Shown here: piece by piece, positions 1 to 20,719 of the stretch
Layout of the letters: each line of letters begins with the position of its first letter
Numbering within the stretch: the first letter of the stretch is position 1
DNA from: Candidatus Jordarchaeia archaeon
Lineage (GTDB): Archaea > Asgardarchaeota > Jordiarchaeia > Jordiarchaeales > Jordiarchaeaceae
DNA: 23,535 bases
Direction: 5' to 3'
Assembly (NCBI GenBank): GCA_029856435.1
Contig: JAHQXB010000150.1
Location: 1 to 23,535 of the forward strand
Translations under genes and position numbers: made by a program
Notes under the pieces: generated by a model
Seen by the model: only the letters and a program-made list of their open reading frames with translations
What the model was told of the DNA's origin: nothing
The model's database searches: none

Positions 1-124
1 TATTCAGTATGTCGATGGCCGAAATTTTTTTGGCAAGCGCCTGCCTGGCGAGGTCTGCTGCGAGCAAGTCGTCACCTTCAACGAGTGCCTGGGATAGTCT
101 CTCAAGTAGCTCCTTCTCCGACAT
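1..124 (-). CDS. Corrinoid (cobalamin-binding) protein, MtaC/MttC-like; N-terminal cap domain only, running off the left edge
   Basis: Absent from the ORF track. The reverse complement reads GGAGG-7 nt-ATG(124) and translates to MSEKELLERLSQALVEGDDLLAADLARQALAKKISAIDILN..., open to position 1. This matches the B12-binding cap pattern (L..L..A..EGD...A..LA..AL...I.A.DI.N) of methyltransferase corrinoid proteins. An alternative ATG lies at 130. Confidence 0.85.
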   Translation of the reverse strand, partial: MSEKELLERLSQALVEGDDLLAADLARQALAKKISAIDILN

Positions 125-187
125 AAGCATCCCTCCAAGGTCTTGTATCCCTATGGGGAATATTTTCTTTTAATTTAGTTTTTCTTT

Positions 188-195
188 TATATAAA
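188..195 (-). promoter_or_regulatory. Putative archaeal TATA box for the corrinoid protein gene
   Basis: TTTATATA on the minus strand, preceded by a purine-rich AAAGTAAAG, about 65 nt upstream of the ATG at 124. The surrounding spacer is very AT-rich, so specificity is limited. Confidence 0.35.
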
Positions 196-374
196 CTTTA
201 CTTTGTATAACAATTTTTATTTTTTTAACTCTTTGGCTTGTTTTTATGAATTTTTATAATTTTACATTGTTAATTTGATAAATTTTCAATATTTTTACCA
301 ATTTTTGGAAAAAGTAAAATTAGGCTCCAAGAGCATTTGGGTAGCGTTTCGAGGATGTGTAGGTTTTTGTTTTT

Positions 375-3300
375 TCATTTCTCTTCGGCTTCTTGTTTTT
401 CTTTGATGGTTTTTTCTTTTCCCACTATTATTTCGTCTATTCTGAGGATGGTTTCTGCTGTTTCGTTTGCTGATTTTATGATTTGTTTTTTGAGGCTTAG
501 GGGTTCTAGGATTCCCATGTTTTTTGTGTCTGCTAGTTTTCCTTGCTGGGTTATTCCTATCCACCTGTTTTTGGGGTCTTGGTGTAGGGTTCTGAGCTGG
601 GTTAGGGAGTCTGTGGGGTTTAATCCGGCATTTTCGGCTAGGGTTTTGGGTATTGCTTCTAGGGCTTTTGCGTATCTTTCTATGGCTAGTTGTTCTTTTC
701 CGAAAAAGTTCTTTGCGTATCTTTTTATTTCTTTGGCGAGTTCCATTTCTGTTGCTCCGCCTCCTGCCACCACCTTTCCCTCTAAAGTTACTATTTTGAG
801 AATTTTTAGTAGGCTGAGAAGCGTTCCTTCAGCTTCACTTATTATTTCCGGAGTAGCTCCCCTGATTAGAATAGTTGCGCATTTTGAACTTGGGAGTTGG
901 ACAAACACCTTTTTCTTTTCGCCGATTTTTTTCTCCTCTACTACTTTTGCAGTTACAAGATTTTCTTCCTTTAGATCGTTGAGGTCGGTTACGATTTTTC
1001 CATCTGTAGCTTCAGATATCATTTTGAGGTCTATGCTTGGTAATTGTGTGACGGTTAAAATTCCGTATTTGGTGAGGAAGTGCTCTGTTAACTCGTCCAC
1101 GATTTTTGTGGATAACACCACATTGGCTCCAGTATTCTTTATTTTCTCCACCATCTCTTCTGCCAGTTTGTTCAGTGTATCCATGTAGATGTCGTAATTC
1201 TTGGTGTTTTCTATGCGGACTTCCAGTTTTCTTCTGAAATTCTGCTGGGAGACTCTTAACCAGCAATCCAGCAGTGCTATTTTAGCCTGTTCAACCCTTT
1301 TGGGCATCTTGGGATTGACAACTTCTCTTTCCAGGATTACTCCAGAAAAGAGTTCGCTTTCATCTAGGCTTCTGCCCTTCTCTCCCAAAATCTTAATTTT
1401 TCTAAGGTCTATATTTGAGATGTCTTTTTCCCCTGTGAGGATTTCTATTGCCCTAGCCGCCATTTCTGCGAATAGTTCTTTTCTCTCCGGAAGCCTCCCA
1501 CCTATAGTGGTTAGGGCGATTTCCTTCAGAGTTTCTTGATCCTCACTGTTTATGGGTAGAGCCATTAGGTTTAGGAGCTCTAAAGTTTTTTGGGTGGCTT
1601 TTCGGTAACCATTTATTACTACTGTGGGGTGTATTTTTTGGCTCAGTAACTCTTCCGCATTTTTTAGTAATTCTCCCGCAAGGATGACGCTGGCCTTGGT
1701 TCCGTCTCCCAAGTTTTTGCTTTGGGTGTCTGTGAGGTCGACCAGCATTTTTGTCGCGGGGTGTTGAAGGTACATGAAAGCCAAAATTGTTGCTCCATGG
1801 CTAGTATATTTTAGGCTTCCTATATTATCTATGAGGAGCTTATTTCTTCCCCTAGGGCCGAAGCATGGCTTTACAGCGTCGGCTATGATGGTGAAAGTGG
1901 ATATGTTGTTAAGTATGGTTTCGAAGTCTTTTTCATGAGTCTTGACCTCTTTAAGGGGGTGGAGGTATTCCAGCTCTTCAGATTCTTTTTCGGTTAATTT
2001 TTCGGCTGCAATTATATCATTGATTCTGAGAATCGTGGTTGCGGCTTCATATGCGGATTTGAGTGCCTGCGTTTTCACTGATAGGGACTCGTAAACTCCC
2101 AAGGGTTTTAGGTTTTTGGTTTCACCGTCAATAACATCAATTCCCGCATAGATTTCTCCACATTCATGTTTCATTCTCAACTCTGCAGTCTTGGCTAAAA
2201 CGTCGAGCCCCAAATTCTTAGCAAGCAAGGCTGGTAAGGCTTCCAAAGCCTCTGCAAATGCTATGAGCACCAACTGCTCCTTCCCCTCGCTGCGCGCTTT
2301 GTTTCGGATTCTTTTTGAAACTTCAGCTTCTACGGCGCCCCCTCCCACCAATATGGCTGGATTTTCAAAGACTTCTTTTAATACCAAAACTGCATCGCGC
2401 ACTGCCCTCTCTGCCTCATCAAGGGCGCTTTGGGCAGCTCCCCTAAGGAGAACGGTTAAGGCCAGCGGATTTTTACAATCCTCAACAACTATTATTCTTT
2501 CTTCCCCAAATTCTCTCTCCCTAACCACACCCGCGTTTCCCAAATCTTCCAAAACAAGATCATTAATGTCTGCAACTACTTGGGCTCCAGTGGCTGAGGC
2601 AATCTTTTGAATTCTGGATTTTTCCACCCACTCAGCAGCCAGAATCCCCACACTGGCCAGATGGTACTTGACCAGGTCATCTATGCCCTTCTCTGAAAAA
2701 ACCACATTCACTCCCAATTGGGTCAACCTATTGACCATTTGCCTAAGCATACTTTCTTCTTCTTGCAGAAAGTCTATTATCTGCTCTGGCTTTTTCACCA
2801 TGATTTTGGTGTCAAACTCGGTTTTTTCAATTTCCAGAGGGCAGCTTAGCACAGCTATCTTCGCATTTACAACTTTTTTGGGCATCCCTCTATGAGTGAC
2901 CTCTTTATTTACTATTATACCCCTAATCAATTCACTATCTGTGACCACGCCTCCCAACCTTTTCTCAACAGCGATTTTTTTAACATCAACAACAAACTTT
3001 TTGCCAGCCCTTCTTGTAATCTGCGAGACAGCATCCACTACTATTCCCGATAGATGCTCACCCTCTTCATGGTCAAATTTACCAGTTATGACGCTAGTTG
3101 CTACTTTTTTCAAAATTTCCTTTTCAGCTGTGTTGATGGGAATTGCTATCTCTTCTAGAACTTTCAAGGTTTCTCTGAGGGCCACGGAATAGCCCCTAAT
3201 TATGGTTGCAGGGTGAACTCCCATATTAACTAATTTTTCTGCTCCACCCAGCATTTCACTCGCTAGGATGACGATGGTCTTTGTCCCATCCCCAAATTCT

Positions 3301-3575
3301 AAGTCCTGTGTCTTAACTGCGTCCTTAAGGACTCTAACTGCAGGGTGGCCTCCCCCCACTCTGTCCAAAATTGTAAATCCATCCCTTGTCATAGCAACCT
3401 CCCCCTTATCATTTACAATGAGTTTACTCAGACCCATGGGGCCAAATGAACCCTTAATAAAATCTTCTATAGTCCTCACTATTGTAACATTTTCCCGTAT
3501 AGTCGACCATTTTCCCGAAAGATCAGAAGAGTATCCATCTTCCAGCATTTTTAATCCCTTTGCGTGAGGCAGCAT
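375..3575 (-). CDS. Tandem-fused group II chaperonin (thermosome/TCP-1 family), two full domains, 1066 aa
   Basis: Domain 1 (aa ~1-524): SFGPMG, TRDGFTIL, GDGTKT, LLRGA..AERAVRDA, GGGAVE, ILRINDII. Domain 2 (aa ~545-1055): CFGPRG, TSHGATIL, GDGTKA, LIRGA, GGGATE, ILRIDEII. The acidic linker EKLTEKESEELE contains no stop or frameshift. An alternative start ATG lies at 3548. Confidence 0.93.
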   Translation of the reverse strand: MLPHAKGLKMLEDGYSSDLSGKWSTIRENVTIVRTIEDFIKGSFGPMGLSKLIVNDKGEVAMTRDGFTILDRVGGGHPAVRVLKDAVKTQDLEFGDGTKTIVILASEMLGGAEKLVNMGVHPATIIRGYSVALRETLKVLEEIAIPINTAEKEILKKVATSVITGKFDHEEGEHLSGIVVDAVSQITRRAGKKFVVDVKKIAVEKRLGGVVTDSELIRGIIVNKEVTHRGMPKKVVNAKIAVLSCPLEIEKTEFDTKIMVKKPEQIIDFLQEEESMLRQMVNRLTQLGVNVVFSEKGIDDLVKYHLASVGILAAEWVEKSRIQKIASATGAQVVADINDLVLEDLGNAGVVREREFGEERIIVVEDCKNPLALTVLLRGAAQSALDEAERAVRDAVLVLKEVFENPAILVGGGAVEAEVSKRIRNKARSEGKEQLVLIAFAEALEALPALLAKNLGLDVLAKTAELRMKHECGEIYAGIDVIDGETKNLKPLGVYESLSVKTQALKSAYEAATTILRINDIIAAEKLTEKESEELEYLHPLKEVKTHEKDFETILNNISTFTIIADAVKPCFGPRGRNKLLIDNIGSLKYTSHGATILAFMYLQHPATKMLVDLTDTQSKNLGDGTKASVILAGELLKNAEELLSQKIHPTVVINGYRKATQKTLELLNLMALPINSEDQETLKEIALTTIGGRLPERKELFAEMAARAIEILTGEKDISNIDLRKIKILGEKGRSLDESELFSGVILEREVVNPKMPKRVEQAKIALLDCWLRVSQQNFRRKLEVRIENTKNYDIYMDTLNKLAEEMVEKIKNTGANVVLSTKIVDELTEHFLTKYGILTVTQLPSIDLKMISEATDGKIVTDLNDLKEENLVTAKVVEEKKIGEKKKVFVQLPSSKCATILIRGATPEIISEAEGTLLSLLKILKIVTLEGKVVAGGGATEMELAKEIKRYAKNFFGKEQLAIERYAKALEAIPKTLAENAGLNPTDSLTQLRTLHQDPKNRWIGITQQGKLADTKNMGILEPLSLKKQIIKSANETAETILRIDEIIVGKEKTIKEKQEAEEK

Positions 3576-3978
3576 TTTTTTAAACCGTACAGTTTCAAGT
3601 TATGACACATCAAATTTAGACCATACAAGCTAAAATATATTGTTAGCCTTTTTCATCGTATTTCACTACTTAAGGTCTAAAGACTCATTTTTCTACGAAG
3701 GCGCTCTGATTTATGATAAATGCGAAAAATCTTTTTTCCACTACCCAAAAATCTAGGTTCATTTGGTATTTGTTTTTCTGGCCCTTTCCCCATTTTATGT
3801 TTGGATTTTTACACAAAAGTTTGGTAAAAATTATAAGCCAAAATAAACAGAAAATTAGTATTATACCCTCTCGCAAAAACAGAAGTCCAGTACTGAATGT
3901 TAAAAATAGAGGGTGGTTCCACAAAAGTAACCTGTAAGTAAATGAGTTACAGTTGCTTAGAAAGGGAGGTAGTTTGGT

Positions 3979-4902
3979 TTGTATGTTTTTGAGAAGGAAC
4001 AGAAGGTTTGGAACATTAATGGTGTAAAGATAGGTGGTCCGCCGGGGGCTCATCCCACGGTTTTGATTGGAAGCATCTTCTACGATAAGCACAAAATTGT
4101 TTCCGACAGACAGAAGGGAATATTCGACAAGAAAAAGGCAGAAGAGTTAATCAATAAGCAGGACGAGATGGCTGAGAAAACCGGGAACCCTTGCATAGTG
4201 GATATTGTGGGTGACACCGCGGAAGCTCTCATAAAACACATTGACTTTGTGGCCTCAGTGACCAACGCTCCGTTTCTGGTGGACAGCACCATTGCAGCTT
4301 CCCGGCTGGAAGCAATCAAACACGCTGTTGAAGTGGGTCTGGGGGAGAGAGCCATCTACAACTCCATAGATGTGCACTCCAAGGAAGATGAGCTTAACAC
4401 CCTCAAGGAAATCGGTGTAAAGTCTAGCATGTTGCTGGTATTTAGTCCCAAAGCATTGCTGCCCGAAGGTAGAATAGAACTGCTAAAAGGTTCAAGCCAG
4501 GAAAAGGGGTTAATTCAGAAGGCCCAGGAAGCAGGAATACAGAACATTCTTGTGGACACAGCAGTTCTGGATGTTGTGAGCATATCCTTCGCAGCCCAAA
4601 CCATATATTCTGTGAAGAAAGAGTTTGGTCTCCCCGCCGGTTGTGGGCCTTCTAACGCGATTACTGCTTGGAAAAAAATTAAGAAAGACTTTCCACCAGA
4701 ATCCTACAAGGCATGCCTATCCGGCTCCGTGCTGGTAACTGTAATGATGGGAGCTGACTTCGCCCTATACGGGCCAATTGAAGAGGCCACATCGGTTTTC
4801 CCCGCCTGCGCCATGGTCGACGGCCTTATCGCATATTACAACAAAAGAAAGTACAAGATACAGCCAGAATCCCCAACACACCCCTTAACCAAAATATTCT
4901 AA
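3979..4902 (+). CDS. mtrH: MtrH-family methyltransferase (stand-alone MtrH/MtgA-like, methyl-corrinoid:pterin methyltransferase)
   Basis: N-terminus FEKEQKVWNINGVKIGGPPGAHPTVLIGSIFY, plus NPCIVD, PFLVDS, IYNSI, LVDTAV, GLPAGCGPSNA and GADFALYGPIE, all characteristic of the MtrH family. TTG start with GGAGGT 8 nt upstream. No other mtr subunit genes in the window. Confidence 0.9.
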   Translation: MYVFEKEQKVWNINGVKIGGPPGAHPTVLIGSIFYDKHKIVSDRQKGIFDKKKAEELINKQDEMAEKTGNPCIVDIVGDTAEALIKHIDFVASVTNAPFLVDSTIAASRLEAIKHAVEVGLGERAIYNSIDVHSKEDELNTLKEIGVKSSMLLVFSPKALLPEGRIELLKGSSQEKGLIQKAQEAGIQNILVDTAVLDVVSISFAAQTIYSVKKEFGLPAGCGPSNAITAWKKIKKDFPPESYKACLSGSVLVTVMMGADFALYGPIEEATSVFPACAMVDGLIAYYNKRKYKIQPESPTHPLTKIF

Positions 4903-4939
4903 GTCCACTTTCCATGAAAAAAGGGGCGAGGTGGTTGAT

Positions 4940-5296
4940 GTGGGTAAAATTGCTGTTTTACTTTTTACTACACCCTTGCAGTTTCAGAATTCGGACACTG
5001 CGATTGAGTTTATAAAAGCGGCTGTTGAGAAGGGTCACGAGGTTACTGTTATTGGTCTGGGAGACGGCGTTTATAATGCCGTGAAACATTTCATTGTACA
5101 AGATATGCCTTCTCCCGTTGGCAAATTCAAGGAGCTTAGTGAGAGGGGAGTAAAGTTTGTTAACTGCTTCCCTTGCTGCACTGCCCGTGGATTAAAACCG
5201 GAAACAGACTTTATTCCCACTGCAACAATAGAAAGCACCACCACTGTCCTTGAAATCATAAAGGAAGCTGACCGGTTCTTCGCCATTACAATATAG
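4940..5296 (+). CDS. dsrE: DsrE/TusD-family sulfurtransferase subunit
   Basis: KIAVLLFTTP, GHEVTVIGLGDGVYN and VNCFPCCTARG (conserved Cys region). GTG at 4940 follows GAGGTG; the ORF track starts at 4931. Confidence 0.85.
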   Translation: MGKIAVLLFTTPLQFQNSDTAIEFIKAAVEKGHEVTVIGLGDGVYNAVKHFIVQDMPSPVGKFKELSERGVKFVNCFPCCTARGLKPETDFIPTATIESTTTVLEIIKEADRFFAITI

Positions 5297-5311
5297 AGAG
5301 GAGTTGTGAAG

Positions 5312-5668
5312 ATGAGAATATTGTTCATAATTAGGAAACCCCCATTCGGCTGGATTCACATTGTTGAAGCTCTCAGATTGGCAGCTGCAGGAGGCTCTCT
5401 TGCAATTCCAGTCACTCTCCTTTTCATCGATGATGGTGTTTATTGCCCCATGAAGAACCAGTTTCCAAAGGCTATCGGATATTCAGCCATAGACCGATTT
5501 CTGAGAATGCTGCAGAACTTCGAGTCGAAATTATACGTGGTTGGGGAGTCCATGGAAGAGAGAGGACTAACTATGGAGGACTTAAACCCTGCTCTGAATG
5601 TTGAGAGTGTGACTTTAAAAGATGTTGCAAAAATCATTGCGCAAAACGACATTGCCATGACCTTCTGA
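5312..5668 (+). CDS. dsrF: DsrF/TusC-family protein
   Basis: ILFIIRKPPFG..EALRLA, VTLLFIDDGVYC, ESMEERGL. ATG at 5312 lies 8 nt after GAGGAG; the ORF track starts at GTG 5306. Confidence 0.85.
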   Translation: MRILFIIRKPPFGWIHIVEALRLAAAGGSLAIPVTLLFIDDGVYCPMKNQFPKAIGYSAIDRFLRMLQNFESKLYVVGESMEERGLTMEDLNPALNVESVTLKDVAKIIAQNDIAMTF

Positions 5669-5679
5669 GGTGGTTAGAC

Positions 5680-6018
5680 ATGGCAACGCTTATACTGGTA
5701 TCCAAATCTCCCTACATAACGAAGGATAATTTGTACGCCCTTGAAACCTCCCTGAATTTGAAGAAGATGAACGAGGAAGTGGGAGTACTACTAATTCAGG
5801 ACGCGGTGCTCAGTGGCATCCAGGGACAGAGGGGACAAGTAGAAGAACTTTTAAGAAAAAACCTTGAAGTGGGCGTTAACATCTACGCATTGAAACCTGA
5901 TGCCCAAGCCAGAGGAATTCCAGAGGGGAGAATGATAAAAGGCATACAGCTTGTAGACTATGGAGAATGGGTCGACCTCACAATGGAAAAATACCAAAAA
6001 ATTGTAAGTTGGACTTAA
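5680..6018 (+). CDS. dsrH: DsrH/TusB-family protein
   Basis: LILVSKSPY, VLLIQDAV, YALKPDAQARGI, VDYGEWVDL. Third gene of an E-F-H trio, with a GAGGTGG RBS. Confidence 0.85.
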   Translation: MATLILVSKSPYITKDNLYALETSLNLKKMNEEVGVLLIQDAVLSGIQGQRGQVEELLRKNLEVGVNIYALKPDAQARGIPEGRMIKGIQLVDYGEWVDLTMEKYQKIVSWT

Positions 6019-6313
6019 ACTATCATAGAAAATTAATCAAAACAACTCGTCAAGTAGCCATAAATCCCAACCTACAGGGAGCGGTACTATTAAAAGATGC
6101 TCACTATTTCTTTAAATCTTCTAGTTAGTAAAGCTCCTCCACTATCTGTTTCCTTATGTTTCTCCAAATTAAGTGATGGGACTGCTCCTAAACGCCGTCT
6201 CTGCGGCCATCAATGCAAAAAGGAAAAATAGGTGAGTATAAAATTTTGGAGGTAGAGTAGCACGAGTCTAGAAGTTCAAATAAAGACGGTCGCAGTACTG
6301 GGTGAAGTAGAGG

Positions 6314-6739
6314 TTGGAAGCTGTGATTAGAATTCCAAGGGATGTTGCCAATCTTTTTAATAATCCGGAAACAGTAAAGGTTTTGGTGACTTTAAACCAG
6401 CATGGTGTTCCCCACTGTGTGCCTATAAGCTCCCTCTCAATCCCGTCCTCAGACATCATTGCTTTCGCTGTAATCATGGCGGATGAAACCCACAGAAACT
6501 TACTAAACAATCCAGATAAAGTAGTGGCCGCTACTGCTGTGAGGGGGTTCCAGAGTTACCAGATAAAGGCGAAACCCCAAGAATACGTGACTGAAGGGGC
6601 GGCCTTTGATGCCTTCAGGCAAAGATTCGGAGGCATCATTATGGGTTCGGGGCTTGAAATCAAGGGGGTATGGATCTTAAAACCTTTAGAAATCTACGAC
6701 CAATCAATTGGTTCTGATGCGGGAAAAAGAATAGTATAA
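6314..6739 (+). CDS. Pyridoxamine 5'-phosphate oxidase-like FMN-binding split-barrel protein
   Basis: KVLVTLNQHGVPHCVPISS, ETHRNLLNNP, YQIKA and EIYDQSIGSDAGKRI fit the archaeal PNPOx-like family. TTG start with GGTGA 8 nt upstream. Confidence 0.8.
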   Translation: MEAVIRIPRDVANLFNNPETVKVLVTLNQHGVPHCVPISSLSIPSSDIIAFAVIMADETHRNLLNNPDKVVAATAVRGFQSYQIKAKPQEYVTEGAAFDAFRQRFGGIIMGSGLEIKGVWILKPLEIYDQSIGSDAGKRIV

Positions 6740-6799
6740 ATTCAGACTCATTTCCGTGTATTCTAGGCTAATATGAGGATTTGGAAGTTGGAGGTTTTG

Positions 6800-8494
6800 T
6801 TGGGTAAAGACACATCTCCAATATTTAAGCCTGCGTATAGGCAGGAACGCGACTTTAATGTAAAGGTTCTCAAAAGTAACATTATGGTAGCTAGGATAGT
6901 CTCCCATATCATAAGTAACACTATAGGGCCTTATAGTGTGAGCAAAGCAATCCTCAAAAAAGACGGAGAAGTTTTGATAACTGGTGATGCCTTCAGTATA
7001 TTGGGTACTCTCAAGGTGGAGCACCCCATAGCCAAGATTCTGATTGGTATGGCTAAGGCTCAGAACGCCATTGTGGGAGACGGTGTTGCTACCGCAGTAA
7101 TTTTGGCAGGTGAGCTACTTAAAAAGGCAGAAATCCTAATTGACCAAGGGCTTCTTCCCTCAAATATTTCAAAAGGATACGACCTGGCGTTGAAAAGGGC
7201 GGTTCAAAGATTAGAAGAAATAGCTATTCCCATAAGGCTTGATGATGAGGAGATTTTGAGAAGGCTGGCTTACACCGCCATAAACACAAAGGTTATCGGT
7301 TCCCATGAAACAATAAACGATTTCAGCAATATGGCCCTGGAATTAGCCAAATTTGCCTGTGAAAATGAGACTGGAGCAAGGTTAAACCTTGAGGACGTAA
7401 AAATTGTTAAAAAGAGAGGGGGCATCCTAGGAGATTCTAGGGTTGTGGATGGCTATGTTATAGATGATAGAGAAATAGTTCATCCAGATATGCCCAGAAG
7501 AGTTGAGAACGCAAATATTGCTCTAGTGAGAAGCCTAGAATTAAAAGAAATCACTGGGAGTTGGTGGGAAGCAGCGGGAAAAAATATGGAAATACAAGTT
7601 GAAGAACTAGAAGCGCACCAAGCCTTCCTTGAGGAGAGGAGAAATTTAGTTAAACAAATGGTGAGCAAACTGGTTCTGCATGGAGTTAACGTGGTTCTTG
7701 TAAATAGGGGCGTAGATGAAATAACTGAACACTACCTTGCAAGGGCAGGAATTTTGACCGTTAAACGCGTTTTTCTCGAGGACATGAATAGGATTAGTAG
7801 GTTGACTGGAGCGCACATAGTGTCTGACTTGATGAGTGACTACTTGACAGCTGACAGGTTGGGGCGAGCCAAATTGGTGGAGGAATGGATACCATCCGAA
7901 AAAGAAAAATATATCCTGATTACTGGTTGTCCAGGTCGGGGAGCTTCAAGTGTTATTATAAGGGGTGGAAACCAGTACGCCTTGGAAGAAGCCGAAAGAG
8001 GTCTCTATGATGCTCTCCAAGTGGTAAGGAATATTAGGGAAGATCCTCGCATTATTCCGGGTGGAGGGGCTTCAGAGATGGAACTTTCCAAGTGTCTGAA
8101 GGAGTATGCCCAGACATTTAGCGGGAAGGAGCAGCTGGCTATTTTGGCCTTTTCTGAAGCTTTACGAATTGTGCCCCAAACTTTGGCAGACAATGCGGGG
8201 CTAGATTCGCTTAATGCTTTGGCAGATCTTAGGGTGAAACACAGTGAGGGAGTGGTTTGGGCGGGATTAGATGTGAACCGGGGCAAAGTTGATGATATGG
8301 AAAAAGTGGGAATCCTTGAGCCAATAAAGGTGAAGGTTCACGCTCTAAACGCTGCTACAGATGTTGCCCGAATTGTACTACGAATTGATGAAGTGATACC
8401 CGCGAGAGGATTCAAGAAGGAAGAGGAACCCAAGCCTGAAACAGAAAAAAGGGCAGCAGAAGCACTAAAAAAAGTGTACGATTTAGAACTATAA
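6800..8494 (+). CDS. Divergent group II chaperonin (thermosome subunit paralogue)
   Basis: TIGP, TGDAFSIL, GDGVATAVILAGELL, HPDMPRRVENA, IIRGG..AERGLYDA, PGGGASE, VLRIDEVI. Likely TTG start at 6800 after GGAGG (6790-6794); the ORF track starts at 6773. Confidence 0.92.
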   Translation: MGKDTSPIFKPAYRQERDFNVKVLKSNIMVARIVSHIISNTIGPYSVSKAILKKDGEVLITGDAFSILGTLKVEHPIAKILIGMAKAQNAIVGDGVATAVILAGELLKKAEILIDQGLLPSNISKGYDLALKRAVQRLEEIAIPIRLDDEEILRRLAYTAINTKVIGSHETINDFSNMALELAKFACENETGARLNLEDVKIVKKRGGILGDSRVVDGYVIDDREIVHPDMPRRVENANIALVRSLELKEITGSWWEAAGKNMEIQVEELEAHQAFLEERRNLVKQMVSKLVLHGVNVVLVNRGVDEITEHYLARAGILTVKRVFLEDMNRISRLTGAHIVSDLMSDYLTADRLGRAKLVEEWIPSEKEKYILITGCPGRGASSVIIRGGNQYALEEAERGLYDALQVVRNIREDPRIIPGGGASEMELSKCLKEYAQTFSGKEQLAILAFSEALRIVPQTLADNAGLDSLNALADLRVKHSEGVVWAGLDVNRGKVDDMEKVGILEPIKVKVHALNAATDVARIVLRIDEVIPARGFKKEEEPKPETEKRAAEALKKVYDLEL

Positions 8495-8520
8495 AACGAA
8501 ACAAAAAAACAATTTGGGGC

Positions 8521-10407
8521 TCAACTATGATTTTCTAAATATTTCTTTACGGAGGGGTATCTTTCAAGGTGTTTGTATGGAATGAGTGTGGATTTTACGA
8601 ATTCTCTTTGAAAGTTGGGTTCCGCCATCAGTTCCACGTATCTTATCCATCGGGACAACTTTTGTGCAGTTTTTCGGACTTCCCTTGATAGTAGAGCCAT
8701 TTTAGCTCCTGCAAGAGCAGTGTTTCCCGCAAAAGTAATTTTTTCGGTGGGAACATCAGGAATCAAGCCTAGAAACTTTGCACTCTCCGGATCAATGTAG
8801 TTTCCAAAGGCGCCAGCTATGAAAACCCTATCTATGTCCTCCTCTGTCACCGCTTTCTTTTCCATGAGAATGGCGCAGCCGGTATGTATGGCCGCCTTGG
8901 CCAACTGTACTTCTTCGATGTCTTTCAGGGAGACGGTTATATTTTTTTCAATAGCCGTTTCCTCCTTCCAAGCAATTACAAATTCCGGTTTTCCCTCCAC
9001 TCTAATCATCCTCACAGTATCTACATCGTTGAACTTCCCCCTCTCTGATATGATTCCACACTTAAACATTTCAGCCACAGCATCAATTACTCCAGAACCA
9101 CATATCCCCACTGGTTTCACTCCATCTATTGTTGCATATTTAACCTCAAAGGTTTTGGGATCGATTCTTATTCTTTCAATGGCTCCCGACACTGCCTTCA
9201 TGCCGTGTTGTATGTGTACTCCCTCAAAGGCGGGGCCTGCAGCACAAGAACAGGAAACAATGTCTTCTCTATTTCCCACAAAAACTTCACCGTTGGTTCC
9301 AACATCCACAAGTAAACACATCTCGTCCATTTCGTGAATGTTAGTTGCCAACACGTCGCCAACAGCATCTGCACCCACGTATCCCGCAATATTGGGTAAA
9401 GCATAAACACTTGCCCTGGGATTAGCGTTTATACCGAGTTCCTGGGTCTTCACCACAACCGGGCCTTTTACTCCCGGAACGTAGGGTGCCAAGTGTAAAT
9501 ATTTTGTTTGGATACCCAGAAACAGGCTGAGCATGGCGGTGTTTCCAACAACTGTCAACTCATAAATTTCACTTTGTTTGATTCCCGATTCTCCACAAGC
9601 AGTCTGGACTATTTTATTGATGCCTTCTATTGCCAGTGTTTGTAGTCTTCTTCTTTTTTCGGGGCTTTCCTCAGCATAGGATATTCGGGACAAAATGTCT
9701 TCTCCAAAGGCAATCTGGGGATTTTCCAAGGAGCCAAGCCCCACAACCTCGCCACTATTTAGGTTAACCAGATATCCCACAATTTTGGAAGTGCCAATAT
9801 CTACTGCAAATCCAAAATTTCTCGATGTAGTGTCTCCCGGCTCTAAATCTATTACTTTGTGGTCATTTAACAGGGTAACTGTTATGTTCCAATTTCCCTC
9901 CCTAATAGTGTCAGGAAGATTTTTAATGAGTTCGTATTCCCACTCTAAACCTCGGAGGCCGTATACCTTTTCCAGATGGGTTAAGATGTTTAAATCGTCT
10001 GCGACGGGATTTTGTACCGTAGGCTTTTCCAATACCAAATTTATTTTTCTGATATTAGGGTCCAGTTTTACTGGCTGCTCCATTCCTTGAATCTGTATCC
10101 TCCGAACACTTAATCGACTTTCGCTTGGAATTACTACAGTTAAATCTCGACGAATTGAAACCATACAAGCTAGACGATACCCCTTGCTAATTTCCTCTGG
10201 TGTTAGGTGCTCCTTCTCCGCTTCGCTTATCTCACTTAAGTGGAGCTGATTCGCAATTATTACCCTACATTTTCCGCATTTTCCCTTCCCACCGCATTCG
10301 GAACGTATTCCGATTCCCCCTCCTTTTGCCACTTCCAATATGGTGGACGCATCAACGGCAGACAACTTTTTACCTTCTGGTTCGAACCGTACAGTAAATC
10401 TTTTCAT
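8521..10407 (-). CDS. ASKHA-domain reductive activator of corrinoid proteins (RACo type) with N-terminal [2Fe-2S] ferredoxin
   Basis: CGGKGKCGKC...RLAC 2Fe-2S motif, plus DIGTS, VGNTAM, DVGTNGE, CAAGPAFEG, GICGSG, AGAFG and GNTALAGA. GGAGG RBS. 628 aa. Confidence 0.92.
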   Translation of the reverse strand: MKRFTVRFEPEGKKLSAVDASTILEVAKGGGIGIRSECGGKGKCGKCRVIIANQLHLSEISEAEKEHLTPEEISKGYRLACMVSIRRDLTVVIPSESRLSVRRIQIQGMEQPVKLDPNIRKINLVLEKPTVQNPVADDLNILTHLEKVYGLRGLEWEYELIKNLPDTIREGNWNITVTLLNDHKVIDLEPGDTTSRNFGFAVDIGTSKIVGYLVNLNSGEVVGLGSLENPQIAFGEDILSRISYAEESPEKRRRLQTLAIEGINKIVQTACGESGIKQSEIYELTVVGNTAMLSLFLGIQTKYLHLAPYVPGVKGPVVVKTQELGINANPRASVYALPNIAGYVGADAVGDVLATNIHEMDEMCLLVDVGTNGEVFVGNREDIVSCSCAAGPAFEGVHIQHGMKAVSGAIERIRIDPKTFEVKYATIDGVKPVGICGSGVIDAVAEMFKCGIISERGKFNDVDTVRMIRVEGKPEFVIAWKEETAIEKNITVSLKDIEEVQLAKAAIHTGCAILMEKKAVTEEDIDRVFIAGAFGNYIDPESAKFLGLIPDVPTEKITFAGNTALAGAKMALLSREVRKTAQKLSRWIRYVELMAEPNFQREFVKSTLIPYKHLERYPSVKKYLENHS

Positions 10408-10979: not shown

Positions 10980-12548
10980 CTGAGTAAAGATAAAAGGGAA
11001 GAGACGGAGTTTGCCGAGGAGACTACAGAGAAAATCGTAATTAAGAGAGTTATTTTAAAACCCGACGAGTTTAGAGCGGCTTTAGAAAAAATTAAGGGTA
11101 TCGTTGGGGCGGAAAATGTTTCTGATGATCCTTTAGATTTAATCTGTCATGAAAGAGATCTATACACTCCGGTCAGTAAACGTTTCCTGGGATCTGTTGC
11201 AACACCGGCGATGGTTGTGAGGCCAAAGAATACGGAAGAGGTTCAGGGGGTTGTTAGAATAGCTAACGAATACAAGATTCCCATAACTCCCTTCTCTTTC
11301 GGAACAAATATGGGTGGTGCTGCTGTTCCGAGCGTTGAAGGTGCCATTCTGCTCGATCTTAGGAGAATGAACCGAATAATTGAGATTAATGAGGAGACTA
11401 TGACAGCCACCATTGAACCTGGGGTTTCTTATGGGAGGCTGGATTACGAGGCTAGGAAGAAGGGTTTAAGAACCGTTTCTACCATAGGTGGATATACTGG
11501 AGGGCTGATAGGCAATTTCGTTACAGCAAATGTGAGGCCCTTTAATGCTATGTTCGGTTTTTCTGATCCTATTGTAACAATGGAAGTTGTGCTACCAACT
11601 GGGGAGGTTCTGAGAACCGGTTCTATGGCATATCCCGGTTATGAAGACGCTAACCCCTATGTGAGGTTGGCTTGGGGACCAGATTTTGCTGGGCTATTCA
11701 GGGGTAGTGCTGGTGCTTTTGGTGTGGTAACCAAGGCTGTTGTGAAACTTTATCCCGCAGGTGAAATTGAGAAACGTTTGAAATTTGCTTTTCCAGATCT
11801 AGATTCACTTTTGGAGGCAATGAAAAAAACTCAAAGAAATGAAATAGGTAGAGCAGTTTTGGGCATTGATCGGAACGAGATATTTTTTGTATGTACCGAG
11901 AGAGGCGAGAGAGAAAACATGTCCAAAGAGGAGTGGCTGAAAACTTATAAGAGCTTTCCCGAATGGGCTATGCTAATAAATTTGGAAGAACGAAAAGAAA
12001 TTGTGGAGGCTGACGAGAAACTGTTAAGAAAAATCTGTGAAGAATATGGGGGTAAAGAGCTAGAACTGCCTCCTAGATACGCGGAGTCTCTGGACGATTT
12101 TTCAACTCATAGGGGCAGAATGATAATGCACAGTCTAGTTATCCCCAGTATGATTTGCTTATGGACATGCACACCTGCAAACAACATTAAAGCCTTTTAT
12201 AATAAAACTTTGGAAGTTTTAAAGAAGTTGGACATGAGGTTTCCTCTATTCAAGGATATATTCAACCCGGGTCGATGGTTCCTAATACCTTTTGATAGAG
12301 GAAATACCTATATGATTGGCGTGGATGTGGATTTTGACACTCTTGATGAAGAACAGTTAAAAAAGGCTATGGAGTTTCTCTTGTCCTACATTTCACTAAT
12401 GACCGAGGTTAAAGGCACCATACCTATGACCATGGGTCCATTGGTTGATATGCTTATGCCCTCCTATAGCAAATTGATTAAATCAATTAAGAAGATGCTT
12501 GACCCAAATGACATTTTTAGTCCTAATAGATTGTGCTTAGTGGGGTAA
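10980..12548 (+). CDS. FAD-binding oxidoreductase (VAO/GlcD/D-lactate dehydrogenase superfamily)
   Basis: VVRPKNTEEV, PFSFGTNMGG, LDLRRMNRIIEI, IEPGV, VVLPTGEVLRTG, GAFGVVTK, LDPNDIFSP. The frame is open for 77 codons upstream of the track's ATG (11211), back to CTG 10980, with a GGAGG RBS. The extension encodes the family-typical IVGAENVSDDPLDL..H.RD segment. Confidence 0.88.
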   Translation: MSKDKREETEFAEETTEKIVIKRVILKPDEFRAALEKIKGIVGAENVSDDPLDLICHERDLYTPVSKRFLGSVATPAMVVRPKNTEEVQGVVRIANEYKIPITPFSFGTNMGGAAVPSVEGAILLDLRRMNRIIEINEETMTATIEPGVSYGRLDYEARKKGLRTVSTIGGYTGGLIGNFVTANVRPFNAMFGFSDPIVTMEVVLPTGEVLRTGSMAYPGYEDANPYVRLAWGPDFAGLFRGSAGAFGVVTKAVVKLYPAGEIEKRLKFAFPDLDSLLEAMKKTQRNEIGRAVLGIDRNEIFFVCTERGERENMSKEEWLKTYKSFPEWAMLINLEERKEIVEADEKLLRKICEEYGGKELELPPRYAESLDDFSTHRGRMIMHSLVIPSMICLWTCTPANNIKAFYNKTLEVLKKLDMRFPLFKDIFNPGRWFLIPFDRGNTYMIGVDVDFDTLDEEQLKKAMEFLLSYISLMTEVKGTIPMTMGPLVDMLMPSYSKLIKSIKKMLDPNDIFSPNRLCLVG

Positions 12549-12550
12549 CT

Positions 12551-13696
12551 ATGGAGCTAAGTAAATATATACGGGAATTTGAACTATGCGTGAAATGCTC
12601 TTTCTGTCAAGAGGATCCTATAACCCATTTGCCTATTTGTCCGGAGGCTGAAAGGTTCGGTTTTGAATCATACCGTCCTTCGGGACTTATGGAGCTTGCT
12701 CGTGCACTAGCTCATAGGAACATAGGGTTGTCCGAGGGGCTGGCTAAGCGTTTCTACTCTTGTCTAACCTGTGGGGCTTGTGACAAACTGTGTTATTCTC
12801 TAACCGGGAAGCGTCCCCTAAATCTGTTCCTAGAAACAAGAAGGGTTCTAGTTAAGAGTGGATTTGGACCAATGCCCGGGCAATTGGAGGCTACAGTGAA
12901 TGTACTATCGACTTCAAACCCCTACGGAAAGCCAAAGGATCAGAGGTTCAAATGGGTCAAGGAAGCTATTCCCAACAAAGCTGAAATAGTTTACTTTGCG
13001 GGATGTACTCCATCATATTATTTTCCAGAACAAGCCCAGTCAACGCTAAAGGTTTTGAAGGCTGCGGGAATAAAGTTTGCTATCATGCCTAATGAACGGT
13101 GCTGTGGTTATACAACAATTATGACTGGACAAGACGACGCCGCCATGGATATTGTGACGGGCAATGTTAAATATATCAAAGAAACTGGGGCCAAAACACT
13201 ATTGACTAGTTGTGCTATGTGTTATAAGATTTTCAACCAGGATTATTTTAAATTAGCAGGAGAAAAAATGGATTTTGAAGTGACACATACTTCCCTGTTT
13301 TTCAATGACCTTGTCAATGAGAACAAGTTAAAGTTAAAGAAGCCAATTTCTGAAACAATAACTTACCATGATCCTTGCAACCTTGGGAGACTGAATAATG
13401 TTTATGATGAACCGAGAAACCTAATTGAGCAGATCCCGAAAACTCAACTGGTTGAAATGGAGAGAAACCGAGGAAGTGCTTGGTGCTGTGGAGCAGGTGG
13501 GGGAGTAAAATTCGCTTTTCCGGATTTTGCAAATTGGACTGCAATTGAACGATTGAAAGAAGCACAATCCACTGGTGCGAAATTATTAGTTTCAGCATGT
13601 CCCGAGTGTGAGCTTAACTTCATGGATTCACTAAAGACAATTGATAAAAAGATTAAAATTCAAGACGTTAATCAAATATTAGCAATGTCTCTTTAA
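12551..13696 (+). CDS. (Fe-S)-binding protein, HdrD/GlcF/GlpC-like (2x[4Fe-4S] plus two CCG domains)
   Basis: CVKCSFC...CP, CLTCGACDKLC, YFAGC, ERCCG, SCAMC, YHDPCNLGR, WCCGAGGG, ACPEC. ATG 12551 lies 2 nt after the previous stop; the track starts at 12533. Confidence 0.88.
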   Translation: MELSKYIREFELCVKCSFCQEDPITHLPICPEAERFGFESYRPSGLMELARALAHRNIGLSEGLAKRFYSCLTCGACDKLCYSLTGKRPLNLFLETRRVLVKSGFGPMPGQLEATVNVLSTSNPYGKPKDQRFKWVKEAIPNKAEIVYFAGCTPSYYFPEQAQSTLKVLKAAGIKFAIMPNERCCGYTTIMTGQDDAAMDIVTGNVKYIKETGAKTLLTSCAMCYKIFNQDYFKLAGEKMDFEVTHTSLFFNDLVNENKLKLKKPISETITYHDPCNLGRLNNVYDEPRNLIEQIPKTQLVEMERNRGSAWCCGAGGGVKFAFPDFANWTAIERLKEAQSTGAKLLVSACPECELNFMDSLKTIDKKIKIQDVNQILAMSL

Positions 13697-15955: not shown

Positions 15956-15972
15956 GTTTTGGAGGATCCAAT

Positions 15973-17226: not shown

Positions 17227-17241
17227 GGAGATGAAAAATGA

Positions 17242-18965: not shown

Positions 18966-19132
18966 TTATTTCACCAAAATCGGGTGTTTCCAAAGAATGT
19001 CCCCACGGTATTTGGGGTTACGATTTTTATTTCATTTACAATTTTCCTTTCAGATTTGATTTTTTACGTTATTTTTATATTTTAAACTTGTGATAGTGTT
19101 TTCTGCCCTAAATTCTTATGGGGTGTGTGTTT

Positions 19133-20581: not shown

Positions 20582-20719
20582 CAAGCCAAAAATTTGGGGG
20601 CCGCCTTACCTCAGCGTGGAAGGACTCTTAGATAAGTGAGGGCTGATAATTGTTTCGTTAGTTTTATATCCTAAAATGAATAAAATGTGTTTCGCATTTG
20701 TTCTCTGGGATGAGTCATC

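What the first reader, a model, noticed from the sequence alone, without database searches (positions are those of the whole stretch)
1..10407. Candidate new system: dedicated chaperonins embedded in a corrinoid methyl-transfer cluster
The order is corrinoid protein(-), fused chaperonin(-), then divergently mtrH-dsrE-dsrF-dsrH-PNPOx-chaperonin(+), then RACo(-). Corrinoid protein, MtrH/MtgA-like MT2 and RACo are the established core of cobalamin-dependent demethylation of methylated amines, sulfides and methoxy-aromatics. Housekeeping thermosome genes are not normally found inside such clusters. Here both divergent arms carry a chaperonin next to a methyl-transfer gene, and all three chaperonin domains deviate from consensus. 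Inference: a pathway-specific folding or cofactor-loading machine for corrinoid proteins or TIM-barrel methyltransferases. The substrate-specific MT1 is not in the window and is predicted to lie left of position 1.
Basis: partly seen in the sequence, partly recalled or inferred. Interest (0 to 1): 0.8.

Follow-up and report, generated by a model that had tools for sequence, protein, structure and literature searches.

The report
Private chaperonins in B12 methyltransferase cluster
An uncultured Asgard archaeon keeps three extra, fast-evolving chaperonin modules, two of them fused into one protein, inside a vitamin-B12 methyl-transfer gene cluster, and related chaperonins sit beside the same kind of enzymes in several distant archaea, which points to a folding machine dedicated to one pathway.

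Summary
The window is a whole 23.5-kb contig of a Freyarchaeia/Jordarchaeia (Asgard) MAG. It holds a corrinoid-protein fragment and a 1066-aa tandem-fused group II chaperonin on one strand. Divergent from these lie MtrH-DsrE-DsrF-DsrH-PNPOx-like-single chaperonin, followed by RACo.

These are not the housekeeping chaperonins. Two canonical thermosome genes lie on another contig. Against the nearest sister genome those evolve about ten times slower at non-synonymous sites.

The linkage recurs:
- five of six species of the genus carry the cluster, and the sixth lacks the cluster's MtrH, DsrF and both chaperonins;
- a Njordarchaeota-like lineage keeps the same fused gene, at 33% identity, and the same single chaperonin around MtrH-DsrEFH;
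- related chaperonins flank URO-D-fold methyltransferases or corrinoid genes in Borrarchaeum and in four other metagenome contigs;
- none of 40 canonical Asgard thermosome loci has such neighbours.

The missing MT1 is a divergent URO-D-fold protein. It lies left of the corrinoid gene in relatives, and its 3' end opens another contig of this genome.

The folding role remains an inference. The conserved core is MtrH-DsrEFH plus a lipoyl-carrier-like protein, not the corrinoid protein or RACo.

This scan found the same system earlier on other genomes (e1-5514332, e1-5514341).

The parts
2..130 (-). N-terminal 43 residues of the corrinoid (B12-binding_2/B12-binding) protein; the gene runs off the contig end
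   Evidence: ORF. It is 71% identical to residues 1-41 of the 215-aa corrinoid protein at the same position in L008 (Pfam).
1971..3575 (-). N-terminal chaperonin module (fusN, residues 1-535) of the 1066-aa tandem-fused group II chaperonin
   Evidence: Cpn60_TCP1 profile positions 1-489 of 490, 505.8 bits. Motif GDGTKT; catalytic Asp kept (RDAV). Its clade includes the Njord-like N-halves, support 0.955.
375..1970 (-). C-terminal chaperonin module (fusC, residues 536-1066) of the fused protein; the linker is only about 12-20 residues
   Evidence: Cpn60_TCP1 profile positions 1-489, 476.3 bits. Motif GDGTKA; the catalytic Asp is replaced in all 13 fused homologues examined. Its clade includes the Njord-like C-halves, support 0.952, with the single chaperonin P0029 as sister, support 0.998.
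3576..3978 (.). AT-rich divergent intergenic region between the two arms, with a conserved TATA-like element (taaaaattataag) at about 3825-3838
   Evidence: 32% GC. The element is invariant in an alignment of four orthologous intergenic regions. A promoter role is inferred, not tested.
3979..4902 (+). MtrH/MtgA-type pterin methyltransferase (the MT2 of the module)
   Evidence: PF02007 E 4e-101; NF002142 343 bits. Orthologues are 84-97% identical within the genus and 59-60% in the Njord-like clusters.
4931..5296 (+). DsrE/TusD-like protein with conserved Cys motif NCFPC(C)TARG
   Evidence: PF02635; alignments.
5306..5668 (+). DsrF/TusC-like protein
   Evidence: PF02635 and TIGR03010, below cut-off; alignment.
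5680..6018 (+). DsrH/TusB-like protein, without any cysteine
   Evidence: PF04077; TIGR03011 67 bits, above cut-off; sequence.
6314..6739 (+). PNPOx-like split-barrel (flavin-binding type) protein; an accessory gene, absent from the complete Freyarchaeia genome and from the Njord-like clusters
   Evidence: PF01243 23 bits, below cut-off. 29 of 30 Atlas feature hits are PNPOx. Absent in L022, L088 and L089.
6773..8494 (+). Single divergent group II chaperonin (cpnS), with a lid insertion containing Trp-Trp
   Evidence: PF00118 481 bits. Motifs GDGVAT, IGPYSVSKA and TGDA; catalytic Asp kept. Orthologues lie downstream of DsrH in Freya and Njord-like clusters, and downstream of x458 in L090.
8521..10407 (-). 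RACo-type reductive activator of corrinoid proteins ([2Fe-2S] domain plus ASKHA ATPase domain)
   Evidence: PF00111, PF17650, PF17651 and PF14574. NF040756 528 bits, below cut-off.
11211..13696 (+). FAD-linked oxidase plus CCG/Fer4_8 protein (GlcD/GlcF- or HdrD-like pair). It is a conserved neighbour of RACo in the genus; whether it belongs to the system is open
   Evidence: Pfam. The same pair lies next to RACo in L008, L011 and L059.

Best explanation
The window carries a specialised, non-housekeeping set of group II chaperonin paralogs. One gene is a natural tandem fusion of two different subunit types (fusN-fusC). The other encodes a third subunit type (cpnS).

The two genes lie on the two divergent arms of one module. 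The fused gene is the first gene of its arm and cpnS the last of the other.
- Arm 1: fused chaperonin, corrinoid protein, then (lost at the contig break) a divergent URO-D-fold methyltransferase x458, an SCP2-like protein, a 4-Cys Zn-ribbon protein and a GcvH-like lipoyl carrier.
- Arm 2: MtrH, DsrE, DsrF, DsrH, (PNPOx-like), cpnS. RACo lies beside it.

Shown: the paralogs are distinct from the canonical thermosome, they are under purifying selection, and they are co-inherited with this module over deep divergence.

Inferred: the three subunit types assemble into a dedicated hetero-oligomeric thermosome. That thermosome folds, holds or assembles one or more proteins of the module. The TIM-barrel methyltransferases x458 and MtrH are the most likely clients, because they are the neighbours that recur with these chaperonin clades.

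The module itself most resembles a four-component corrinoid demethylase that passes methyl groups to a pterin through MtrH. Its substrate is unknown. It also has an unexplained sulfur-relay and lipoyl-carrier side.
For: (1) Not housekeeping.
- The genome has 7 Cpn60_TCP1 domains in 6 genes. The two on contig C55 carry GDGTTT, score 633-653 bits like the best thermosomes of 300 other Asgard genomes, and are 62% identical to each other. The window's three domains score 476-506 bits and are 32-42% identical to everything else in the genome.
- Against genome G008, the canonical genes show dN 0.005-0.007 and dN/dS 0.02-0.03. The fused gene shows dN 0.074 and dN/dS 0.17; cpnS shows dN 0.052 and dN/dS 0.12. 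Both are faster but still constrained.

(2) Co-inheritance within the class.
- G000 and 4 other species of the genus have the MtrH orthologue, DsrF, the fused gene and cpnS together.
- G010 (96% complete) and all 5 genomes of the sister family lack all four.

(3) Deep conservation.
- Njord-like contigs L012, L088 and L089 keep GcvH-x59-fused <-> MtrH-DsrEFH-cpnS, with 85-120 nt gaps before cpnS, while the outer flanks differ.
- Identities to the window or to relative L008: fused 33-35%, cpnS 36-39%, MtrH 59-60%, x59 81%.
- In the tree, N-halves group with N-halves (0.955), C-halves with C-halves (0.952), and cpnS with the Njord-like singles (0.814).

(4) Further contexts of related chaperonins.
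- L090: two tandem unfused chaperonins, the second fusC-type with a 22-nt gap, lie divergent from an x458 orthologue (68% identical) followed by a cpnS-type chaperonin.
- P0029, sister of fusC, lies beside a corrinoid protein and a URO-D gene.
- P0104 lies beside a URO-D gene.
- Borrarchaeum has corrinoid-URO-D-CBS-chaperonin next to three MtrH genes and RACo.
- A more distant x458 (55% identical) lies 1.5 kb from a chaperonin, with GcvH and lipoate-attachment genes nearby.

(5) Controls.
- None of 40 canonical thermosome loci (+-7 kb, many genera) holds a URO-D, x458, MtrH, corrinoid or RACo gene.
- The other 4 chaperonin genes of this genome share no contig with any of its 15 URO-D, 22 B12-binding, 4 MtrH or 3 RACo genes.
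- Of 35 MtrH loci from other lineages, only 2 have a chaperonin within 10 kb.

(6) x458 is a URO-D-fold protein: hhalign 99% probability, E 4.5e-18, and Atlas features agree.
Against: - No expression, interaction or biochemical data exist. Synteny cannot say whether the chaperonins fold anything in the cluster, or which protein is the client.
- No single neighbour is present in every context. The Njord-like clusters lack x458, the corrinoid protein and RACo nearby. MtrH is not seen on the L090 contig, although that contig ends within the gene next to cpn536. L093 has corrinoid-x458 with no chaperonin within 10 kb upstream or about 3 kb downstream, where the contig ends.
- The closest MtrH orthologues outside these lineages (LC30 60%, Atabeyarchaeia 58%) have no chaperonin and no DsrEFH.
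- Most corrinoid modules of this same genome do without a chaperonin.
- Loss of the catalytic Asp in fusC, and in both halves of the Njord-like proteins, raises doubt that the complex runs a normal ATP-driven folding cycle.
- Freya and Njord-like occurrences may stem from one ancient event or from a transfer of the whole block, so they are not fully independent.
- The tree is a single FastTree run rooted at midpoint.
Confidence: 0.6

Rival explanations
1. Inherited synteny without functional coupling. The extra chaperonins are general or stress paralogs of a chaperonin-rich lineage that happen to lie in a stable gene block or a transferable island.
For: - Within the genus the whole neighbourhood is syntenic, including genes with no obvious tie to the module, such as FAD-oxidase/CCG and methylmalonyl-CoA mutase.
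- The genus has two further divergent paralogs, on contigs C70 and C5, that are not linked to methyltransferases.
- TnpB/IS elements occur at the window's right end and inside the Njord-like cluster L089.
Against: - The linkage survives divergence down to 33-39% chaperonin identity while the outer flanks change.
- Related chaperonins turn up next to URO-D, MtrH or corrinoid genes in differently arranged contexts: L090, L091, L034, and the P0029 and P0179 contigs.
- None of 40 canonical loci does so.
- Gaps of 85-120 nt between DsrH and cpnS are operon-like.
Confidence: 0.15
2. The clients or partners are the sulfur and lipoyl proteins (the DsrEFH hexamer, the GcvH-like carrier, the Zn-ribbon protein), not the methyltransferases. 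The chaperonins belong to a sulfur-relay/lipoyl module, which in turn associates with MtrH.
For: - Across the deepest split, the genes that always accompany the fused and cpnS genes are DsrEFH, GcvH-like and x59, together with MtrH. x59 is 81% identical over that distance.
- The P0179 contig places a chaperonin between two GcvH genes, beside radical-SAM and LplA lipoate-attachment genes.
Against: - No DsrEFH or GcvH is seen on L090 or L091, or in the 20.9-kb stretch read around the Borrarchaeum cluster (L034), yet a URO-D or x458 gene lies next to the chaperonin in each. L090 and L091 are short contigs.
- Small single-domain proteins are unusual chaperonin clients (general knowledge, not tested here).
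Confidence: 0.13
3. The chaperonin-like ring is not a foldase. It is a structural part of the pathway: a cage or scaffold that encloses or organises the methyl-transfer enzymes, for example to protect Co(I) or to channel a hydrophobic substrate.
For: - ATP-site motifs are degenerate. fusC, and both halves of the Njord-like proteins, lack the catalytic Asp, and no module in the window has GDGTTT.
- The genes stay under purifying selection despite this.
- Covalent fusion fixes subunit order, as would suit a structural assembly.
Against: - fusN and cpnS of the Freya clade keep the catalytic Asp.
- The L090 relatives keep fully canonical motifs.
- All modules keep the GGGA.E nucleotide-binding motif and the full three-domain length.
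- I know of no precedent for a group II chaperonin used as a metabolic compartment.
Confidence: 0.12

Closest known systems
Hetero-oligomeric archaeal thermosomes (alpha/beta of Thermoplasma, alpha/beta/gamma of Sulfolobus) and eukaryotic CCT/TRiC
   Same: Full-length Cpn60_TCP1 subunits. Several diverged paralogs sit in one genome, with unequal ATP-site conservation among them. That inequality is known for CCT subunits (general knowledge; PMC5413064 appears in the list).
   Different: - Two subunit types are covalently fused in nature. Only two such clusters exist among 1.84 billion representative proteins.
- The genes sit in a metabolic gene cluster.
- They evolve about ten times faster than the housekeeping pair.
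Client- or pathway-dedicated chaperonin paralogs: extra GroEL copies co-regulated with nitrogen-fixation genes in rhizobia, mycobacterial GroEL1, plastid Cpn60 for Rubisco, BBS6/10/12 for the BBSome (from general knowledge, not checked here)
   Same: A duplicated chaperonin that has left housekeeping duty and is tied genetically to one pathway.
   Different: Those cases are group I chaperonins or eukaryotic chaperonin-like proteins. Here the chaperonin is an archaeal group II type with three dedicated subunit types. No paper naming a thermosome linked to a corrinoid system was found. The Freyarchaeia genome paper does not mention chaperonins.
Four-component corrinoid methyltransferase systems that deliver methyl groups to a pterin: MtoABCD of Methermicoccus (PMC8630106, listed), MtgABC glycine betaine system, bacterial O-demethylases
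   Same: Substrate methyltransferase (x458, URO-D fold), corrinoid protein, MtrH/MtgA-type methyltransferase and RACo-type activator, all adjacent in relatives.
   Different: - x458 is a divergent subfamily below the Pfam cut-off. It has an N-terminal extension of about 85 residues and lacks the HxC zinc motif.
- The module carries DsrEFH, a GcvH-like lipoyl carrier, a Zn-ribbon protein, an SCP2-like protein and three chaperonin modules, none of which belongs to the known systems.
DsrEFH/TusBCD sulfur-relay complexes, and the lipoate-binding-protein (LbpA) branch of sulfur oxidation
   Same: Three paralogous DsrE-fold subunits in E-F-H order with a conserved Cys in DsrE. A GcvH-like protein keeps the lipoyl-lysine context ETVK.
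   Different: DsrH has no cysteine. No DsrC, TusE, TusA or sHdr genes were seen in the loci. The partner gene is a pterin methyltransferase, which is not a known context.
Engineered covalently linked thermosome subunits (general knowledge, not checked here)
   Same: Head-to-tail linkage of two complete subunits through a short linker.
   Different: This is a natural gene under purifying selection. It joins two different, anciently diverged paralogs.

Membership tests
Group II chaperonin (thermosome/CCT, PF00118) | Complete Cpn60_TCP1 domain (equatorial, intermediate and apical regions) | tested here: met
   All three modules cover profile positions 1-488/489 of 490, at 476-506 bits.
Group II chaperonin (thermosome/CCT, PF00118) | Nucleotide-binding motifs GDGTT(T/S) and GGGA.E | tested here: inconclusive
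   GGGA.E is kept in all three modules. GDGTTT is changed to GDGTKT, GDGTKA and GDGVAT. The effect on ATP binding is unknown.
Group II chaperonin (thermosome/CCT, PF00118) | Catalytic Asp equivalent to GroEL D398 | tested here: inconclusive
   Present in fusN (RDAV) and cpnS (YDAL). Absent in fusC (LSLL) and in both halves of the Njord-like fused proteins.
Group II chaperonin (thermosome/CCT, PF00118) | Assembly into double rings with ATP-driven lid closure | not testable with these tools
   Needs purification and electron microscopy.
Housekeeping thermosome alpha/beta subunits | Orthology with the conserved thermosome pair found in all Asgard genomes | tested here: not met
   - The canonical pair is on contig C55.
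- The window's modules fall in separate long-branch clades.
- TIGR02339 scores 489 against a cut-off of 671 for cpnS, although the NF041082 and NF041083 cut-offs are passed.
- dN is about ten times higher than in the canonical genes.
Four-component corrinoid methyltransferase system (Mto/Mtg/O-demethylase type) | Corrinoid protein with B12-binding_2 and B12-binding domains | tested here: met
   There is a 43-aa N-terminal fragment in the window. The full 215-aa protein is present in relatives.
Four-component corrinoid methyltransferase system (Mto/Mtg/O-demethylase type) | Methyl-corrinoid:pterin methyltransferase (MtrH/MtgA/MtoA type) | tested here: met
   PF02007 at 338 bits; NF002142 above cut-off.
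Four-component corrinoid methyltransferase system (Mto/Mtg/O-demethylase type) | RACo/RamA-type reductive activator | tested here: met
   All four RACo Pfam domains are present.
Four-component corrinoid methyltransferase system (Mto/Mtg/O-demethylase type) | Substrate-specific methyltransferase (MT1) next to the corrinoid protein | tested here: inconclusive
   - It is not in the window.
- Relatives have x458 directly after the corrinoid gene.
- This genome holds only the last 78 residues of a copy, at the start of contig C21.
- x458 is URO-D-fold by profile comparison.
- Its substrate and activity are unknown.
DsrEFH/TusBCD sulfur relay | Three DsrE-fold paralogs in E-F-H order | tested here: met
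   PF02635 twice and PF04077 once. The TusB model is passed; the TusC and TusD models score below cut-off.
DsrEFH/TusBCD sulfur relay | Active-site cysteines in DsrE and DsrH, and an acceptor protein (DsrC/TusE) | tested here: inconclusive
   The DsrE Cys motif is conserved. DsrH has no Cys. No DsrC or TusE was seen in the loci, but none was searched for genome-wide.

The most novel reading that the evidence does not exclude
Asgard archaea evolved a three-subunit-type, partly covalently fused thermosome that is obligatory for building one metabolic complex: a new corrinoid methyltransferase system coupled to a DsrEFH sulfur relay and a lipoyl carrier. This would be a prokaryotic example of the step that CCT took in eukaryotes, where paralogous subunits take fixed positions, use ATP unequally and serve particular clients. 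The fusion would hard-wire subunit order.
Probability: 0.3. Interest if true: 0.85.

Novelty: new variant of a known kind. Interest (0 to 1): 0.68.

Why it matters
Group II chaperonins of archaea are regarded as general folding machines, and specialised subunits with fixed order are seen as a eukaryotic (CCT) trait. This Asgard lineage, from the archaeal group closest to eukaryotes, holds seven chaperonin modules. Three of them are tied to a single pathway, and two of those are naturally fused.

If the inference holds, it offers a tractable system for asking how subunit specialisation and client dedication arise.

It also marks an undescribed type of corrinoid methyl-transfer module, made of a URO-D-fold MT1, MtrH, DsrEFH, a lipoyl carrier and an SCP2-like protein. 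The substrate and the sulfur chemistry of that module are unknown, and it may matter for methyl-group cycling in hot springs and wetland soils.

Tried and rejected
- **Complex prediction of MtrH with DsrE, DsrF and DsrH.** The result was no verdict (score 0.00, controls not run). It is not used for or against binding.
- **AlphaFold2 model of x458 from a 10-sequence alignment.** Mean pLDDT was 49. Only the C-terminal half showed an alternating beta/alpha pattern, so the model was not sent to fold search. It was replaced by a profile-profile comparison.
- **Sequence search of x458 against solved structures.** No hit at E up to 10.
- **Phylum-wide Pfam search for chaperonins, meant for a genome-wide adjacency count.** The match table was cut at 150 rows and listed only canonical genes. 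It was replaced by a control set of 40 canonical loci.
- **Open frames of about 1110 aa reported for thermosome matches in G304 and G398.** These looked like further fusions but are two separate tandem genes with stop codons between them.
- **Preprint on an [Fe8S9C] cluster in the Mtr complex, considered as a possible link between MtrH and sulfur or cluster assembly.** The cluster sits in MtrCDE, not MtrH, so the lead was dropped.
- **P0025, a 913-aa chaperonin-containing protein.** Its short contigs showed no methyltransferase context, and it was not followed further.
- **Literature searches for natural fused thermosomes or chaperonins tied to corrinoid systems.** Nothing relevant was found.
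- **The idea that these are the genome's only chaperonins.** Rejected.

Full report
**What is in the window**

The 23,535-base window is one whole contig (C160) of a 3.54-Mb, 181-contig MAG. Close homologues of its proteins come from Candidatus Freyarchaeota / Jordarchaeia, which are Asgard archaea.

- a 43-residue start of a corrinoid protein at 2-130(-), 71% identical to the N-terminus of the full-length protein in a relative;
- a 1066-aa protein at 375-3575(-) with two complete Cpn60_TCP1 domains;
- after a 403-bp AT-rich divergent spacer, MtrH (3979-4902), DsrE, DsrF, DsrH (4931-6018), a PNPOx-like protein (6314-6739) and a 573-aa chaperonin (6773-8494);
- RACo on the other strand (8521-10407).

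The rest of the contig holds an FAD-oxidase/CCG pair, leuB/leuCD-type genes, a phosphoribosyltransferase, two acetyl-CoA-synthetase(ADP)-like genes and a TnpB gene.

**The chaperonins are extra copies**

The genome has seven Cpn60_TCP1 domains in six genes.

- Two genes on contig C55 score 633-653 bits, carry GDGTTT and all other consensus motifs, and are 62% identical to each other. They score like the best thermosome matches of the other Asgard genomes sampled.
- The three modules in the window score 476-506 bits and are only 32-42% identical to each other and to every other copy.
- Their P-loop-like motif reads GDGTKT (fusN), GDGTKA (fusC) and GDGVAT (cpnS).
- fusC has lost the Asp that corresponds to GroEL D398, and so have all 13 fused homologues examined. 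fusN and cpnS keep it.

Compared with genome G008, the closest of the genus's species representatives (cpnS 90% identical):

| Gene | aa identity | dN | dN/dS |
|---|---|---|---|
| Canonical thermosomes | 98-99% | 0.005-0.007 | 0.02-0.03 |
| Fused gene | 85% | 0.074 | 0.17 |
| cpnS | 90% | 0.052 | 0.12 |
| MtrH | 96% | 0.016 | 0.044 |

The window's chaperonins are therefore real, constrained genes that evolve about ten times faster than the housekeeping pair at non-synonymous sites. The genus reaches five chaperonin matches per genome, which is the scoring cap, against at most four in the other Asgard genomes sampled.

**The fusion**

The two halves are joined by a short linker that is conserved within the Freya clade.

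A scan of 1.84 billion representative proteins found only two clusters of full-length tandem forms. One is the Freya type and the other is a type at 34% identity. The second type is 56-64% identical to a protein that NCBI names as Njordarchaeota.

In a tree of 189 chaperonin modules:
- Freya and Njord-like N-halves form one clade (support 0.955);
- C-halves form another (0.952);
- the two clades are far apart.

So two already distinct paralogs were fused once, before these lineages separated or before the gene moved between them.

Contig L090 shows what looks like the unfused state. A canonical-like chaperonin is followed after 22 nt by a second gene whose N-terminus is most like P0029, the single-module sister of the fusC clade.

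**Recurrent linkage**

Within the class (11 species genomes):
- G000 and four other species of the genus carry the MtrH orthologue (84-100%), DsrF, the fused gene and cpnS.
- G010, the sixth species of the genus (96% complete), and all five genomes of the sister family lack all four.

Relatives at 63-88% identity keep the order RACo / cpnS-(PNPOx)-DsrH-F-E-MtrH <-> fused-corrinoid-x458-x130-x59-GcvH-like.

Three Njord-like metagenome contigs keep GcvH-x59-fused <-> MtrH-DsrE-F-H-cpnS with different outer flanks. One has a TnpB gene inserted, and none has a corrinoid, x458 or RACo gene nearby. Between the two lineages MtrH is 59-60% identical and x59 81%. The fused protein is only 33-35% identical and cpnS 36-39%.

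Relatives of these chaperonin clades in other contexts again have methyl-transfer neighbours:
- x458 (68% identical) lies between chaperonins in L090.
- A corrinoid protein, a URO-D protein and a cobalamin adenosyltransferase lie next to P0029.
- A URO-D gene lies next to P0104.
- Candidatus Borrarchaeum has corrinoid-URO-D-CBS-chaperonin beside three MtrH genes, RACo and cobalt-transport genes.
- A distant x458 (55% identical) lies next to a corrinoid protein, two GcvH genes, a chaperonin and lipoate-attachment genes.

Controls:
- None of 40 canonical thermosome loci from many Asgard genera has a URO-D, x458, MtrH, corrinoid or RACo gene within 7 kb.
- The four other chaperonin genes of this genome share no contig with any of its 15 URO-D, 22 B12-binding, 4 MtrH and 3 RACo genes.
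- Only 2 of 35 MtrH loci from other lineages have any chaperonin within 10 kb. One of those two is the Borrarchaeum case.

**The missing MT1**

In relatives the corrinoid gene is followed by a 458-aa protein with no Pfam hit above cut-off. A profile-profile comparison with this genome's 14 URO-D family proteins gives 99% probability (E 4.5e-18, 334 aligned columns). The protein has an N-terminal extension of about 85 residues and lacks the HxC zinc motif of MtaA-type enzymes. Atlas features agree, with 29 of 30 hits being URO-D.

In this genome only the last 78 residues of a copy survive, at the very start of contig C21. They are followed by the SCP2-like gene and the methylmalonyl-CoA mutase gene that follow the second x458 copy in relative L008. 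The x59, GcvH-like and DpnII-like genes give no tblastn match (E <= 1e-8) in the assembly.

The most likely reading is an assembly break at the duplicated x458 gene.

**What the module may do**

The parts match a four-component corrinoid demethylase that hands methyl groups to a pterin through MtrH: x458 as MT1, the corrinoid protein, MtrH as MT2 and RACo.

x458 neighbours elsewhere include an SCP2-like protein, 2-hydroxyacyl-CoA-dehydratase-type genes, their activases and CoA-transferases. This hints at a hydrophobic or aromatic substrate, but it is only a lead.

The DsrEFH trio, the GcvH-like protein and the 4-Cys x59 have no place in known systems. DsrE keeps a conserved Cys and DsrH has none. 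The GcvH-like protein keeps the lipoyl-lysine context. GcvH next to MtrH also recurs without chaperonins in Atabeyarchaeia and Bathyarchaeia, and the Freyarchaeia genome paper noted it. That paper does not mention chaperonins. I leave this part unexplained.

**Interpretation**

Shown:
- these are non-housekeeping, constrained chaperonin paralogs;
- one is a rare natural fusion;
- they are co-inherited with this module over deep divergence;
- related chaperonins recur next to TIM-barrel methyltransferases, while canonical ones do not.

Inferred:
- they form a dedicated hetero-oligomer that folds or assembles proteins of the module;
- x458 and MtrH are the best client candidates.

Against over-reading:
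- no neighbour is universal;
- one x458 locus has no chaperonin within 10 kb upstream or about 3 kb downstream, where the contig ends;
- most corrinoid modules in this genome need no chaperonin;
- the degenerate ATP sites leave room for a non-canonical role.

Literature searches found no description of such a linkage or of a natural fused thermosome. Earlier agents of this scan reached a similar reading on two other genomes.

Noticed in passing
window 1-130 and G000 contig C21:1-2451 (L092): The contig ends inside the corrinoid gene. Contig C21 begins with the last 78 residues of an x458 copy, followed by the SCP2-like gene and methylmalonyl-CoA mutase. The x59, GcvH-like and DpnII-like genes of relatives give no tblastn match in this assembly. 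This looks like an assembly break at the duplicated x458 gene.
   Followed up: partly
L025 1427-2837; L030 7028-10921; L054 9501-10306; P0179 contig: A GcvH-like gene lies directly upstream of MtrH in Bathyarchaeota and Atabeyarchaeum loci that have no chaperonins. One metagenome contig places radical-SAM genes and a lipoate-protein ligase beside GcvH-chaperonin-GcvH-corrinoid-x458. A lipoyl carrier seems to be a regular partner of these methyl-transfer modules.
   Followed up: partly
window 11211-13696: An FAD-linked oxidase plus a CCG/Fer4_8 protein (GlcD/GlcF- or HdrD-like) stays next to RACo in all relatives of the genus that were examined. Given the thiol and lipoyl genes nearby, it could be a disulfide reductase of the system, or an unrelated lactate/glycolate dehydrogenase.
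   Followed up: no
G000 C70:38329-40113(-) and C5:7779-9413(+): There are two further divergent chaperonin paralogs. One has GDGTKT with the catalytic Asp changed to Ala; the other has GDGGKI with the Asp changed to Asn. Neither shares a contig with methyltransferase genes.
   Followed up: partly
window 22604-23533(-); L089 5026-6249(-): TnpB/IS605-type genes lie at the right end of the window. In one Njord-like contig, one is inserted between MtrH and the fused chaperonin.
   Followed up: no
window about 3825-3838: A TATA-like element (taaaaattataag) is invariant in the divergent intergenic region of four orthologous loci, about 145 nt upstream of MtrH.
   Followed up: partly
L009 6448-7509 and L010 5027-6088: Three small genes of opposite orientation (77, 134 and 140 aa, no Pfam hit) are inserted between DsrH and the PNPOx-like gene in one relative. 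The complete Freyarchaeia genome lacks the PNPOx-like gene altogether (L022).
   Followed up: no
L034 951-2096(-): In Borrarchaeum the chaperonin-containing corrinoid cluster starts with a B12-binding protein fused to a winged-helix DNA-binding domain, which may be a cobalamin-sensing regulator.
   Followed up: no
L094 (G304:C127) and L095 (G398:C80): The genome search reported open frames of about 1110 aa for canonical thermosome matches. These are two separate tandem thermosome genes (547+556 aa and 544+548 aa). Such an arrangement is one from which a fusion could arise.
   Followed up: yes
window 14885-17754 and 19118-22162: An isopropylmalate/isocitrate dehydrogenase gene, aconitase-type large and small subunit genes, and two paralogous ADP-forming acyl-CoA synthetase alpha-type genes. 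These are ordinary metabolism and show no sign of belonging to the module.
   Followed up: no
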